Below are positions 52,401 through 58,400 of a stretch of DNA of 64,000 nt, in pieces. The stretch lies in NCBI GenBank assembly GCA_044892505.1, contig CM097882.1:538780001-538844000 (forward strand), written 5' to 3'. The translations under genes and the position numbers were made by a program. Positions within the stretch are counted from its first letter, which is position 1. Every line of letters begins with the position of its first letter. The notes under the pieces were generated by a model that was given only the letters and a program-made list of their open reading frames with translations, had not been told where the DNA came from and searched no databases. This DNA is from Schmidtea nova (taxonomy: Eukaryota).

Positions 52401-55400
52401 CGTAGGGAATTCGTTGAAAATTTATTTATCCTGCATATAATCACAAAAGTTAATTTAAAATGAGATTAATTTTATTTATCTCCGCCGTGATCTACCACGG
52501 TCGGAATAAAGAGTTCATAATTAGTCCTGTGCTATATACAGCATTCAGGAATTATCAAATGTACTTTCAGAGAATAATTTTCCGCGCTATATACAGCGAT
52601 CGGACTAACAATTATATAATCGGTCTATTTTTAGATATTTTCAACTTGGTTGAGATTTCCCCTCGCATTCCACCGCGATCGGAATTTATTTATCGGATGA
52701 TCGTGACTGTGATGTGTCTTTGTCTACATCATCAAGACTGTAGTGACGTATTTTATCTGTAATCATTAAGTAATTTTTCATCGAGTCGCACTTTGACCCA
52801 TAATGAAATTCGACATTTCGATTGATTCAAATACCCTTTTTTATAATTTAGATCATCTCTTATGTGCTCTAGAACCTCGACTTTTTACCATATGATCTCA
52901 GGATTTGGGAGGCTAATACCTTACTGTACTTCGGTGTCACATACCTTCTGGTAGCTCTTTCTGCCTTTCCTACTGTGCCCCATGCCATGCCCCCTGTGCA
53001 ACCGATTATGTGATATTTTAATTTTAGTTCGCAATTCGTCAAAAAAAAATTTTATAAATCATCATGAAAACGTTTTCTCAAATAACTAGATATGAATGAT
53101 AATTTGGTATCTGTAACCCTCCTCGAACTATATCTAAAAATTATGAGAATAAAAGGTGGAACCGCCATGTGAGACCGTGAGGCCCCACAACGACGACTCG
53201 GACTCCCTCGCCGCGTGAGCAGCATAGGAAGTATACTATATGCATTAAAATGTCAATATCAAAAATAAAATAACGTTAACATATAAAATTTTAATTGAAT
53301 AAAAATCATGGGTACATTATAAAAAATAAAAATAAAAAAATTACGTTCCGTACTTGAATTCTGCTTTTCAAAAAATCTCGTTCTGTTCAATGAAATATTA
53401 CTTAAAATCAAAGTTTAGTCTTGATTGTAAGTTAAAAGTAAAACGTCTGTTGTTGTGATTTTTGGATCGGTATTTATACTGATCCGTCTGGTTGGATTGA
53501 CCAATCAGGATCAGGCCGTCCATCAAAGTATTTTTATTATTTTATTCTAACCTAAACATTATTTTGTTTCCTTTTCCGGTTTCTCGCTGGGTGGTCCTGA
53601 TTTTTCAAGTAATTAATTAATTACTTGCACTATTATTTTATTTAATTCTATCTTTTCTTATTTCAGGCCCCCTTTTGCGGTTGTTTACCGGTTTATTTTC
53701 GAAATTTCCTTTTACTGCAAATTTATCAATTATTATTTGTCGTTTTATTGTTATTTTTAATTTGTTTTTCTTGTTATTTTTATTTTTATTATTTCTTTAT
53801 TGTTTTATGCTTTTCGCTCTTTTATTGTGTTTTAGGTGATTTGGTGGGCCCAACAGATGTTTCAAAGTCACAGGGGAGCGCAAAATTGTTACCTTGTACC
53901 CGGGTGCTAAAAACTGTCGCTAAGCCTCTGATTTTATGGGCAGTGTTAGAATTTCTTCAAAATGACAAAAATCTACAAAACTTGGTTAGCCGCTGGAAAA
54001 CATGTGACGATGCAAATGGAAATTATTTTTAAAAATAAACTTTAAATGACTTGCTTATTGTATATACGAAATATATTTTTGTTCATTTATTTATTTCTAT
54101 ACGAGTCTACTTATTGGGCGTAACAGATATATATGAACTATAAAGTACTAATTTACAATTTTTATAAATAATAAATATATCTTGAGAAAACTTTAAATCA
54201 AAAATAATTTACACGTTAAAAATGATGTTAAAATTACAACTGGGTACTATTTAAAAATGAAAACAAATGATCATACTAAACATTTATCAAAAATACACAT
54301 ACTAAAAATCTTAAATATATCTTGCACTATCGATTCTGCAAACTTGTGATATTATATCCTTGGGATTAATTTTATAACCTTGAATTGAAATATTTATAAA
54401 CCATCGTTTGTTATCCTTGAAATCAGTTCACTTAAACGTGTTTTTCGATTGTTAATAAATATCGTTTCATTGTAAGAAACATTTTTATTGATTTTCGATA
54501 AAACTTTATTTACCTCAACATCTTATTTATATTATTTAGATGCTCGAATAAGCTGACATATAATGACTTTGATAACTTGACCGGATAGGAGAATCTTAAT
54601 GGTATTTCATTTACTAAGAAATATATTTTAGTCTGGTACATTTGAACTGGTTTCACATCATTTTTGCTTTTATTGGATTTGTCATCAGTATCTATTTTTT
54701 TCATTTGATATAACTTTGTTGATTTCATTATTACTTCAGTTTTAATCGGGTTGGTGTCTTTAAACACATTTCTGAATGTTCCAAAAACAGGCTTACTAGA
54801 TTGCATTCCAAAATTATGAAAATTTTATTTTCGTTTTTACTTGTAGTTTTGAAATTGTATGTTACCAATCAAATTCTTACATTTGTACTGCGTATATTAC
54901 ACATGATTCGTGGATCTACTTCTGAGTGTGTGCGACAGATAACCTTCGTGATATTAATGTGTCTTAATGTATTTTTAATGTGTTCGTATTGGATTTTTTG
55001 TAAAAATTATTTCCTATAATAAAAACAAACATTTTAAACAAAAACGATTTATATAAATAAAACAAAGCCAAATATAATTAAATATTTATTCATTATATAC
55101 AATCGATGAAAAATGAAATTTTCCAATTCCTTTGGTAAGATCCATATGTGATTTTTGTCAGTTGGTCGGTGCAATATCCTCTTTGATATGCGTATATCGT
55201 CTTCAGGTTCTCGAGCAATATCATATTGATATCAATACTATTTGTTGCCCAAATTTCGAACTGTAGCATTCCAGTACGCTTTGGACATAATTCTTCTATT
55301 TTCTGACAAATACGGACATGTGATTATCTGAAACAAATAAATATAGAATATTAAATTAAATTAAATTAATTTACCGTTAATTGAAAATGAAGACATTTTT

Positions 55401-58400
55401 TGATAAATAACTTTAAAAACTATTGGTATTTACACTAGTTTAATTGAATACGCACACATACAATCAATCAGAATTGTACATTTGTATTGCATGTTTTACG
55501 CATTCATGGATAATAATAAATCCTAAAATTTTTTATGTTCAAACAAATATTTATTTCACAAATAATTTGATTGGCTGTATCTTGATAATTCATATTTTTG
55601 ACGCCAAAACCATTTTACCGTTAGCAAATATGTTGACACGTATAGGGTTATATTTAATATATATATATATATATATATATATATATATATATATATATAT
55701 ATATATATATATATATATATATATACCAGCCAGAAAAATTTCAGGTTCATAAACATATTCTGTTTTCTTGGATAATTTATCAAAATTGATATGAATTCCG
55801 ATATCTACAGTCGCTGTGATGAATCGAATTGCCAAATCATGTATCTTGTGTTGTAAATCTTCTACATTGATAGATATTTTAAATCCCATAATTCAGCACT
55901 TACATGCATTGAAAAAATATTATTGGATACTTCCCGCTTCTATCGACAACTTGTTGTGGTTTTTCGCTTGGAAATAACATGTTCAATAAGGATGAACAGC
56001 AGCTAGAACCTAAACGTTAGAAATACTGAAGGTATATTATCAATCGAATTAAAGGACACGTAAAATTATTTGCAAAATAATCTGTGGTAAATCTGAATTA
56101 TGTATTTTTGAACGACTGTCATCAGAAGGAATTATTGCATGGGTATTAAATTCGACCTTGACCTTAGGCGAAAACTAGACTTTAAAATTTGAGCACAAAT
56201 CATCTTAATTCAAAAGAAATTTCGTGGCTTACTTTTCCTAGTGCGGGATCTTGTTCTATATATGATAGAGATATATCCTACTACTAATAATAAATATTAG
56301 AATATACGGTGTTTCGTCTTTCGTCTTTAACTTATCCGAAATATACGAACTTCCTTGTAAATCTTTACTTAAAAAATATTTTGATTACGTACTTCATCCA
56401 GAATGAATATAAGAGTCAAATCTACAATGCTTACATTCGTTTTTCTCAAACAGAGATCTTTCAATACTACTTTTACAGGTTTCAAAGCCAAAATTAAATT
56501 TGAAATCAAATTAAGATCATTTTCTGAAAAATCCTAATCAGATTTTATAACAATTAGAGTCTTACAAACGCAATTTTTAATTCGATCAAATATTTCTAAC
56601 ATTAATAACAAACTGCTCTACCGTGTTTTTGTGTAAACTTTTAGCGTAAACTCCATATCAAATTCGTCCTCGACATGTTTCCAGAAGATATAATTTTTGT
56701 TGGTGATCTACGGAACATGGCAACAACTTTCCGAGTTTTTGTTATTATTGATTCAATAATATTGAACTTATGGTTTTATGTTTATCAGTAGTTAATGTAT
56801 CGTTAATAACTTCAAAAAGTTCAATACCTTCCGTTATTTCGTCCTTCTTCTTTTCACTTATAGTACTATTTTAACCGGTAATACTTCTTCTAATACTTTC
56901 TCCTCTAAATGTTGGGTTATTGGGTTGTTGGTGAAATTTAAAATTTACACCAAGTGTGTTTTATTTTACCGTCAAGATAGCCATTTCCAGTCAACATAAA
57001 CTTTACACAAATTACAATGGCACGGCTAATTCAATACCACAACAGGTAATTATACAGGGCTTATTACAACACTTCGTAAAGAATAGTACTAGTGTATAAT
57101 ACCTAAAATTGAACAATCAGTGACCACTGAGTTTGATTAAACAATTGGCAAATTGATTTCAGTTGTTTTTGTGCTCTGACTTGGTAATTTATTAAATAAG
57201 CTTCGACTCTTTTCTTATTCAATTAATTCTTGTTTTGCTACGTTCAATTTAATCTGTTCAAATTCACGTTTTCCAATAATATGATCCTGATTGACTCACT
57301 AAGTTTGTTTTTTTTCAATTTACTCTACTACAAATTCGATTTCTCCAATTTAATTTTTTCTTTTCTAATTATTAATTTCTCTAATTTTAACACATCCTTT
57401 TCATATTTTTAATTTCTCAAGTATGAATTCTAATTCATCTACTGTGGCTTCTCCCTTTTATAGTTCGTTATTTTCTGGTACTTGAGATTATTTTTGCTTT
57501 TCTCATTTTTTTACCTTCAGCATACTCCACACTTTCTTCATAGCTCCCGCATTTTCTCTGATAGCTGTCGAAATATGACATTCTTTTCGTTTTGTTGTTC
57601 CGCTTTTTCTTCTGCAAATTTGATATCTCTGACAAGCTGTCAAGATATGAATTTTCCTCTTGTTTTTGGTTTCCAATTTTAGAATTTCTTTTTCCCTTTT
57701 TGCCCTTATTAATTATCAATGACATTTTCTTGCTCTATTGTTCGATTTCTTTTATTTTGCTAATACTTTCTCATTTCTCAATTTTGCTCTTCTTTCTTTT
57801 TCTCCGAGTTCCAGAACATTGTCTTGTTTACCCTGTTAATTTTCCCCAATTATTTTATTTATTAATGATATTATTTAATTTTATTATTTAGGTGTCCTCA
57901 ACATACACACTAGATAATAAGAATTGTGATTCAAATAGAATATTTTAAGTAATTGGATCGATTTAGTGATGAAACTTAGTAATTGTGAAGACGGGATTAT
58001 GAAACTAGACAAAAAATTGAAAAAATAATTTAAAATGATTTAAAAATGCAAATTTCGTGGTTTTTTATTTTAAAATTACAGATATTATATTATTCAGCAT
58101 TTTATCCAATATATGTGCAAAATATTTACTTAAAAGATACAATTACACATGTTGAAGATTTCAGTTATTTTCTGAAATAGACTCATATGGATTATTTTAT
58201 AATAGGAAGTTTTCATACAGTACGATTTGCAACAAATGATTATCTTGTTATTTATTAATTAATTAAATTATAAAAACAATAATTATATAGAAATGTATTG
58301 ATAAACATTATTATTGAATCAATTTATTAGAAATTTACTTTCTCCACCACGGCAGAGTGCCGATAAACGTGCTTTCTGTAGAAAACAAACAACCGATCGA

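What the first reader, a model, noticed from the sequence alone, without database searches (positions are those of the whole stretch)
54300..56230. Mobile-element-borne minimal TATA-binding protein in a co-oriented gene cassette
Seen: a ~180-codon intronless frame retaining both TBP repeat signatures, including the second-repeat DNA-intercalating Phe positions (YEPEIF, VNIF) but very divergent and with no N-terminal extension. It is followed tightly on the same strand by a spliced decayed gene (55396-55090) and further decayed frames (to ~54300), and preceded by GACCTTGACCTT. Established: TBP homologues are encoded by some large DNA viruses (Nucleocytoviricota, white spot syndrome virus) and are not a standard part of the Polinton core set. 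Inference: relic of an undescribed endogenous DNA virus or giant transposon that brings its own basal transcription factor. Together with the nuclear-receptor/YY1 arrays and AG-ended termini elsewhere in the window, it may define an element family with its own transcription-control system. This is my best candidate for a novel system.
Basis: partly seen in the sequence, partly recalled or inferred. Interest (0 to 1): 0.78.

Follow-up and report, generated by a model that had tools for sequence, protein, structure and literature searches.

The report
Dead Maverick carrying its own mini-TBP
This is a broken, partly deleted copy of a very abundant virus-like transposon (Maverick/Polinton) whose relatives carry a trimmed TATA-binding protein and place a non-standard TATAAAC box before their packaging and putative particle genes, which likely gives these elements their own late-gene switch.

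Summary
The TBP signal is real (Pfam PF00352), but no 180-codon frame exists. The window holds a decayed, internally deleted Maverick/Polinton: a terminus, a capsid-gene scrap, the 3' part of a TBP-like gene broken by frameshifts and a (TA)39 array, and two more broken genes. Young relatives are about 17-kb Mavericks with pPolB, integrase, A32 ATPase, protease, AG..CT TIRs and 6-bp TSDs. They encode a 157-aa mini-TBP: TBP fold (pLDDT 96; Z 12.4), N-lobe helices lost, TFIIB-binding glutamates kept, DNA face remodelled, dN/dS about 0.1-0.3. It is far from host TBP and widespread (56 metagenome loci). TATAAAC precedes 28 of 36 core-gene starts (1.4 expected) but 1 of 34 TBP starts, and 2 of 31 starts in a second, TBP-less Maverick lineage. 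Best reading: an element-encoded late-promoter factor, herpesvirus-like in logic; binding and timing are untested. One paper notes a 'TBP' on a related element in a legend only. This scan found the same system before on other DNA.

The parts
56233..56285 (-). Maverick terminal tip (AGTAGTAGG... read inward on the minus strand); the partner terminus is not in the window, so no TSD can be tested
   Evidence: 76-81% to TIR tips of young copies and to the 22835 terminus; termini of young copies
56141..56232 (-). Probable TIR-derived remnant, holds GACCTTGACCTT at 56154-56165 (inferred)
   Evidence: lies between the terminus and the capsid scrap; no other G000 match covered it; like the TIR repeat unit
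55979..56140 (+). Scrap of the pVI-like gene end and the putative major-capsid gene start, joined to the TBP gene by a ~3.7-kb deletion that removed ATPase, PX, integrase, minor capsid and the TBP 5' end
   Evidence: blastn 76-80% to rel -3733..-3915; tblastn 46% and 59%
55499..55975 (-). Broken mini-TBP gene (about residue 17 onward), with frameshifts and a (TA)39 array
   Evidence: Pfam TBP E 1.7e-5; tblastn to young mini-TBP in four frame segments; 84% nt over 248 bp
55649..55725 (.). (TA)39 microsatellite inside the TBP C-lobe, right after EPEIF
   Evidence: translation
55090..55396 (-). Broken ORF2, spliced orphan gene of the early cassette
   Evidence: tblastn to young ORF2; GT..AG intron after codon 8 in the young copy
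54317..54806 (-). Broken ORF3 (possible ssDNA-binding protein; not established here)
   Evidence: 61-71% aa to young ORF3; no Pfam or Atlas hit; low-confidence fold
54255..54316 (-). End of homology, at the point where the TIR begins in young copies
   Evidence: window 54255 = rel 1847; TIR starts at rel 1843-1894

Best explanation
The window holds a dead, internally deleted Maverick/Polinton, and the mini-TBP of its family likely works as the element's own late-gene switch, predicted to read a TATAAAC box in front of the packaging and putative virion genes and to recruit host RNA polymerase II. Shown: element identity, a conserved open mini-TBP in young copies, TBP fold with N-lobe helices lost, conserved TFIIB-contact glutamates, a remodelled DNA face, and a strand- and distance-fixed TATAAAC box before core genes but not before TBP. 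Inferred: TBP, ORF2 and ORF3 are made first from ordinary TATA/CCAAT/initiator promoters; the mini-TBP then binds TATAAAC, with its altered N-lobe over the 3' half where the C sits; host TFIIB docks on the kept stirrup; loss of the N-lobe helices frees it from TAF1, TFIIA, Brf1 and Mot1/BTAF1.
For: Element: full core gene set in five copies read piecewise, Pfam rve, Chromo, Pox_A32, Peptidase_C5, TIRs of 1728 and 2055 bp with AG..CT ends and 6-bp TSDs in 2 of 5 copies. Protein: AF2 pLDDT 96.2, no helix in residues 1-60; top five VIA hits all TBP, Z 12.4, rmsd 2.8, 145 aligned; dN/dS 0.11-0.31 between diverged G000 subfamilies; open in 27 of 29 young copies. Family of 126 rows: E93 93%, E95 98%, F38 96%, F97 100%, F113 99%, plus fixed polar changes on the DNA face N6 84%, R44 96%, M46 100%, S68 90%, R101 86%, N111 99%. 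R101, C109 and N111 align with the I194, V203 and L205 positions whose change alters TBP specificity (PMC1636458 passages); herpes ORF24 also uses a polar face (PMC12529657). Box: TATAAAC in 28 of 36 dereplicated core-gene upstreams against 1.4 expected, top of an unbiased 7-mer ranking; ATAAAC at -31 to -36 from the ATPase ATG in 11 of 13; 1 of 34 TBP upstreams. Where the box lies inside the preceding gene, codons are biased to keep it: Ile-Asn as ATAAAC 23 of 37 near gene ends against 7 of 57 elsewhere, p 7e-7. TBP-less Maverick lineage in the same genome: 2 of 31 upstreams, none before ATPase, capsid or protease.
Against: No binding, expression or timing data. All box-bearing elements were collected by their TBP, and the TBP-less control is one related lineage of another Maverick type, so co-occurrence rests on one contrast; one of its six loci (L185) has broken mini-TBP pieces next to it in a nest of insertions that I did not resolve. 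Wild-type TBP has been crystallised on the C(-25) TATA variant (PDB 1qn3 title), so host TBP might read the box. A capsid-less, integrase-less derivative keeps two open mini-TBP copies in its TIRs. One of four intercalating Phe is lost (K/P at position 22). Integrase and orfX also carry the box, so it is not strictly virion-only. Only 14 of 34 TBP upstreams show a TATA at -50..-24 and CCAAT is not enriched (10 of 34). Homologous sites in related loci are not independent, so the p-values overstate.
Confidence: 0.62

Rival explanations
1. The box is read by host factors (host TBP on a weak TATA variant, or a forkhead protein, whose recalled consensus RYAAAYA includes ATAAACA), and the mini-TBP does something else.
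For: PDB 1qn3 is wild-type TBP on the C(-25) variant. ATAAACA is 28 of 36. The host has four TBP-family frames, two of them divergent.
Against: The usual forkhead word GTAAACA is not enriched (1 of 36) and the reverse orientation is absent (TGTTTAT 1, TGTTTAC 0 of 36), while ATAAACG is enriched (6 of 36). Canonical TATAAA[AT] is not enriched before core genes (8 of 36, 6.4 expected). C is disfavoured in the 3' half of the box for TBPm3 (PMC1636458 passage).
Confidence: 0.17
2. The mini-TBP is a decoy that sequesters host TFIIB or blocks host TATA promoters, to shut down host or antiviral transcription, alongside cargo such as a Bcl-2-like gene.
For: TFIIB-contact glutamates kept while regulator surfaces are lost; kept in a capsid-less derivative beside a Bcl-2-like gene.
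Against: A decoy does not explain the near-invariant, family-specific DNA-face residues or the matching box.
Confidence: 0.12
3. The mini-TBP serves replication or packaging, by binding and bending AT-rich TIR or origin DNA, and has no role in transcription.
For: It travels with pPolB and ORF3 in the capsid-less derivative and lies next to ORF3 in many of the 17 of 56 loci that hold ORF3; TIRs are AT-rich repeat arrays.
Against: The TFIIB stirrup is conserved at 93-98%; the box is tied to gene starts.
Confidence: 0.06
4. It is a processed pseudogene or passive capture of the host TBP.
For: Intronless and broken in the window.
Against: Separated from cellular TBPs, including the four host frames, by a long branch (SH-aLRT 99); purifying selection; 56 metagenome loci, 24 with other Maverick core genes.
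Confidence: 0.01

Closest known systems
Maverick/Polinton elements (adintoviruses; Starrett et al. 2021, PMC8502044)
   Same: pPolB, rve integrase with chromodomain, A32-like ATPase, adenain-like protease, putative capsids, TIRs with AG..CT ends, 6-bp TSD, ~17 kb. The PolB has no PF03175 hit, which fits that paper's Beta class (inferred).
   Different: Carries a mini-TBP and a shared TATAAAC box. [quoted passage not shown] 5 (figure not seen, so the element is unknown) and has no occurrence of 'promoter'.
Beta/gamma-herpesvirus vTBP (KSHV ORF24, EBV BcRF1, HCMV UL87) with the TATT late box (PMC12529657)
   Same: Virus-encoded TBP fold with a polar-rich DNA face, paired with a non-canonical TATA-like box, in a nuclear DNA virus with no polymerase of its own.
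   Different: ORF24 is 752 aa, has Pol II- and ORF34-binding domains, keeps four Phe, lacks the TFIIB glutamates and needs five partner proteins. The mini-TBP is ~150 aa, keeps the glutamates and three Phe, and has no known partner.
Cellular TBP/TRF and archaeal TBP (Pfam PF00352)
   Same: Saddle fold, intact C-lobe with EPE(L/I)FP stirrup, F116/F190/F207 equivalents.
   Different: N-lobe lacks H1, S2 and H2 in most members (G-to-S spacing median 22 against 34), F99 equivalent lost, six DNA-face positions fixed as other residues.
Nucleocytoviricota TBP-like proteins (Ravarani et al. 2020, PMC7221094)
   Same: Viral TBPs that lose the N-lobe regulator surface; structural hits in BFVD.
   Different: Those viruses often encode their own TFIIB and have diverged adaptor residues; no TFIIB match in G000 came from a Maverick among the 6 PF00382 matches (three loci read), and the host-type stirrup is kept.

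Membership tests
Maverick/Polinton | [quoted passage not shown] | tested here: met
   1290-aa ORF with PolB-type motifs (YIDINNLY, KLLNNSLYGK, GDTDS; motifs recalled) and endonuclease VII insert in young copies; absent from the window relic itself
Maverick/Polinton | Retroviral-like integrase | tested here: met
   rve E 5.6e-9 and Chromo; split at the same place in all five copies by a GT..AG intron
Maverick/Polinton | A32-like packaging ATPase and adenain-like protease | tested here: met
   Pox_A32 E 2.1e-6; Peptidase_C5 E 2e-4
Maverick/Polinton | Double and single jelly-roll capsid proteins | tested here: inconclusive
   425-aa and 361-aa ORFs in the usual positions, conserved in metagenome loci, but no Pfam hit and not folded
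Maverick/Polinton | Long TIRs with AG..CT ends and 6-bp TSD | tested here: met
   2 of 5 copies show clean TIRs and TSDs (tgatat, gaaatg); the other three were not resolved; the window relic has one terminus only
TBP family (PF00352) | Profile match and saddle fold | tested here: met
   E 1e-15 for a young copy; Foldseek and VIA top hits are TBPs
TBP family (PF00352) | Two complete lobes, each with two helices | tested here: not met
   Model has no helix in the N-lobe; 16 of 117 scored relatives have G-to-S spacing of 30 or more and may keep H2
TBP family (PF00352) | Four intercalating phenylalanines | tested here: not met
   Three kept (96-100%); the F99 position is K/P/S (yeast numbering Table 1 and recall)
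TBP family (PF00352) | TFIIB-contact glutamates of the C-lobe stirrup | tested here: met
   E93 93%, E95 98% of 126 rows; role from PMC7221094 passage
TBP family (PF00352) | Binds and bends a TATA element, nucleates a preinitiation complex | not testable with these tools
   needs biochemistry
Herpesvirus vTBP (ORF24/BcRF1/UL87) | Large multidomain protein with Pol II-binding NTD and DNA-binding CTD, lacking TFIIB glutamates | tested here: not met
   157 aa, TBP core only, glutamates kept
Herpesvirus vTBP (ORF24/BcRF1/UL87) | Non-canonical TATA-like box before late genes and absent before the factor's own gene (works-like feature) | tested here: met
   TATAAAC 28 of 36 core-gene starts, 1 of 34 TBP starts; late timing itself not tested
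Host TBP/TRF2 retrocopy | Groups with the host gene and evolves neutrally | tested here: not met

The most novel reading that the evidence does not exclude
A widespread clade of animal Mavericks/adintoviruses runs the smallest virus-encoded core-promoter switch known: a single ~150-aa TBP with orthogonal specificity for TATAAAC that plugs into host TFIIB and Pol II and escapes TAF1, TFIIA and Mot1. It would give these elements an autonomous early-to-late programme in the nucleus, with no helper virus.
Probability: 0.45. Interest if true: 0.85.

Novelty: new variant of a known kind. Interest (0 to 1): 0.68.

Why it matters
Whether animal Mavericks are autonomous viruses, and how they would time capsid production, is open; the papers checked here say nothing on their promoters. 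A matched factor and box makes this testable with a gel shift, a reporter and start-site mapping. A natural TBP that drops the whole N-lobe regulator surface yet keeps the TFIIB stirrup and has fixed changes at the known specificity positions would also define the minimal working TBP and offer an orthogonal Pol II promoter pair. The window copy itself is a dead fragment; the value lies in the family.

Tried and rejected
Single 180-codon frame: rejected. GACCTTGACCTT as a TBP promoter element: not upstream of TBP in the relatives scanned. Host retrocopy: rejected. IMG/VR scans with the mini-TBP alignment, ATPase and capsid gave nothing; the ATPase alignment gave three distant loci at 24-25% identity that I did not use, so no same-clade TBP-less control was obtained. 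No RNA holder listed; three runs laid were contigs of unrecorded kind from one study and say nothing on expression. ORF3: no Pfam or Atlas hit, single-sequence fold pLDDT 49.7, not searched further. orfX: Atlas hits are unnamed eukaryotic clusters, with a Maelstrom-domain lead at 0.86 only. No complex prediction was run: host TFIIB is split over exons. The careful tree did not finish; the quick tree is used, midpoint-drawn and with no labelled giant-virus rows, so the donor of the mini-TBP is not determined. A change at the P191-equivalent to explain CATAAAC variants was looked for and not seen: L104, L109 and L129 keep EPELFPA. Literature: searches found no paper describing this TBP family or box (one search was for TBPm3); only the top 30-40 of many hits were listed; subscription papers, Repbase reports, figures and bioRxiv supplements were not searchable and may bear on novelty.
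Full report
1. Observation. On the minus strand the frame 55892-55590 is open for 100 codons and matches Pfam TBP (E 1.7e-5); YEPEIF and VNIF are present. 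About a quarter of that frame is a (TA)39 array (55649-55725). There is no 180-codon frame: stops and frame changes interrupt it. Comparison with young copies shows the relic is a mosaic: a Maverick terminus at 56285, a 160-bp scrap of the pVI-like/major-capsid junction on the other strand (55979-56140), a jump over ~3.7 kb, then the TBP gene from about residue 17, ORF2 and ORF3, with homology ending at 54255 where the TIR would start. Identity to the closest young family is 75-84%.

2. The element. The window lies at G000:C1:538780001-538844000 in a 1.25-Gb genome. A DNA search gave 1329 candidates (40 scored) and PF00352 gave 14,002 (150 scored); these are not copy numbers. Twenty-nine young copies are ~98% alike over 3.2 kb. 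Five were read in 10-kb pieces: pPolB, orfX, protease, putative major capsid, pVI-like, putative minor capsid, integrase with an intron, PX, ATPase, then head-to-head the mini-TBP, ORF2 and ORF3. Pfam confirms rve, Chromo, Pox_A32 and Peptidase_C5; the capsids have no Pfam hit. Two of five copies show clean TIRs (1728 and 2055 bp, over 99%), AG..CT ends and 6-bp TSDs; the others were not resolved. This is a Maverick/Polinton.

3. The protein. Young copies encode 157 aa; the frame is open in 27 of 29 (a set chosen by best match, so biased). dN/dS is 0.11-0.31 between diverged G000 subfamilies, 0.25-0.50 for the three closest pairs within one subfamily, and many distant pairs are saturated; the ATPase control is 0.035-0.057. 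AlphaFold2 on 52 sequences gives pLDDT 96.2: the C-lobe is complete, the N-lobe keeps four strands and no helix. Foldseek and VIA return TBPs first (Z 12.4, rmsd 2.8, 145 aligned; next fold Z 6.5). Homologues: 57 proteins; 62 clusters at 50% identity with E up to 1e-30; 56 metagenome loci, 24 with other Maverick core genes, 18 of the 25 of 2.5 kb or more. In a quick tree of 132 rows, 88 rows holding the four G000 Maverick proteins are split from 44 rows of cellular type holding the four host frames (SH-aLRT 99); fragments, short rows and two long multi-repeat rows were left out, the careful search did not finish and the root is not fixed.

4. Residues. In 126 family rows the TFIIB-contact glutamates are kept (93%, 98%), as are three of the four intercalating Phe. 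The DNA face carries fixed family-specific residues: N6 (V71), R44 (V122), M46 (T124), S68 (N159), R101 (I194), N111 (L205). The C-lobe mapping is; the N-lobe mapping is by motif, and yeast numbers come from Table 1 of PMC12529657 and recall. I194, V203 and L205 are the positions that change TBP specificity in TBPm3, and the N-lobe contacts the 3' half of the box (PMC1636458, passages). The eukaryotic N-lobe binds TFIIA, TAF1, Brf1 and Mot1, and viral TBPs lose that surface (PMC7221094, passages).

5. The box. I saw TATAAAC by eye in upstream regions and then tested it. Upstreams came from 56 metagenome and 10 G000 loci, only where a start with 130 nt upstream could be placed, and were dereplicated by shared 12-mers. 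TATAAAC is in 28 of 36 core-gene upstreams (1.4 expected, first in an unbiased 7-mer ranking): ATPase 11 of 13, pVI-like 6 of 6, orfX 5 of 7, protease 2 of 4, capsid 2 of 2, minor capsid 1 of 3, PX 1 of 1; TBP 1 of 34, ORF3 0 of 3. It is on the sense strand and, for the ATPase, mostly at -31 to -36. Where it falls in the preceding gene, synonymous codons keep it (23 of 37 against 7 of 57; 8 of 10 against 7 of 36; sites in eight related loci are not independent). TBP upstreams instead show an initiator-like TCA(T/C) word near the ATG (30 of 34) and a TATA at -50..-24 in 14 of 34; CCAAT is not enriched overall, though ORF2 and ORF3 of the young family have GATTGG plus TATAAATA. A second Maverick lineage in G000 has no mini-TBP within the one element whose ends were defined and TATAAAC in 2 of 31 upstreams from six loci, none before ATPase, capsids or protease; it is one lineage of another type, and locus L185 has unresolved mini-TBP pieces beside it. 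A forkhead reading is weakened by the lack of GTAAACA and of the reverse orientation.

6. Mechanism. Most likely the early cassette is transcribed by host machinery, the mini-TBP then selects TATAAAC promoters and hands on to host TFIIB and Pol II, free of N-lobe regulators. Element identity, selection, fold, residues and box are shown; binding, TFIIB use and timing are inferred (0.62). Against it: host TBP can be crystallised on this variant (1qn3 title), a capsid-less derivative keeps two open copies, the box also precedes integrase and orfX, and no RNA data were available.

7. What is known. Starrett et al. 2021 (PMC8502044: passages, section 10, one supplement file searched without a hit; preprint passages) list 'TBP' in a figure legend for a MELD element; the figure was not seen. 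PMC11161782 and bioRxiv 2023.08.22.554363 have no occurrence of TBP, TATA or promoter in the main text. PMC6431247 passages give no TBP. KSHV ORF24 (abstract and first part of Results) is the closest working analogy but not the same family. Searches listed no description of the family or box. Eight earlier notes of this scan report a Maverick TBP with a matching box in other genomes; I read them, and they are unchecked AI notes, not support.

8. Verdict. The family is a known kind of element with an apparently undescribed transcription module. Novelty: new variant of a known kind. Interest 0.68; 0.85 if binding is shown.

Noticed in passing
G000:C1:676072-690844 and C2:6839448-6854205 (L213-L218): A 14.8-kb capsid-less, integrase-less Maverick derivative with AG..CT ends; mini-TBP, ORF2, ORF3 and a Bcl-2-like gene (PF00452 E 1.4e-7) sit in ~3.9-kb TIRs, so two TBP copies per element, around pPolB and a protease piece. 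The two copies read are 99% alike, and many inverted TBP pairs ~9.8 kb apart appear.
   Followed up: partly
L129, L136; P0136, P0144, P0169, P0170, P0177: Less reduced relatives that appear to keep N-lobe helices but share the remodelled DNA face; L129 lies beside a Maverick ATPase and integrase with (C/T)ATAAAC boxes, so helix loss may be a later step within the family.
   Followed up: partly
upstream of mini-TBP genes in metagenome and G000 loci: TTGTTTTA in 10 of 34 dereplicated TBP upstreams (1.1 expected), mostly 43-65 nt before the ATG; a possible autoregulatory or host-factor site.
   Followed up: partly
G000:C3:29274161-29288849 (L169-L171) and relatives: Second Maverick type (PF03175 PolB, PLA2-integrase, PF21738 capsid; TSD gatggg) with no mini-TBP inside its ends and no TATAAAC before structural genes; its starts are mostly TA-rich ...AAAATG.
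   Followed up: partly
window 19554-22835, 241-500, 31851: Maverick TIR repeat arrays (ATATATGACCTAC units) and CTACTACT termini of separate insertions.
   Followed up: partly
window 61244-64000 (-), continuing into L196: pPolB of another, more diverged Maverick copy (63-72% aa), in the orientation opposite to that expected for the TBP relic.
   Followed up: partly
window 49131-49773 (-): Exons of a host acyltransferase (PF01553 E 7.3e-7; LPCAT-like motifs, recalled) about 4.5 kb from the relic.
   Followed up: no
window 51101-52425 (-) and 50017-50298 (+): Two GC-richer orphan frames (202 and 180 aa) of another repeat, the first also seen beside copy A (37-41% aa); and a cysteine-rich frame like a piggyBac C-terminus (recalled; no Pfam hit).
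   Followed up: no
L090, L104, L111, L215: Cargo of mini-TBP Mavericks includes a ubiquitin-conjugating enzyme, leucine-rich-repeat proteins, a C2H2 protein and a cysteine-rich, probably secreted protein.
   Followed up: no
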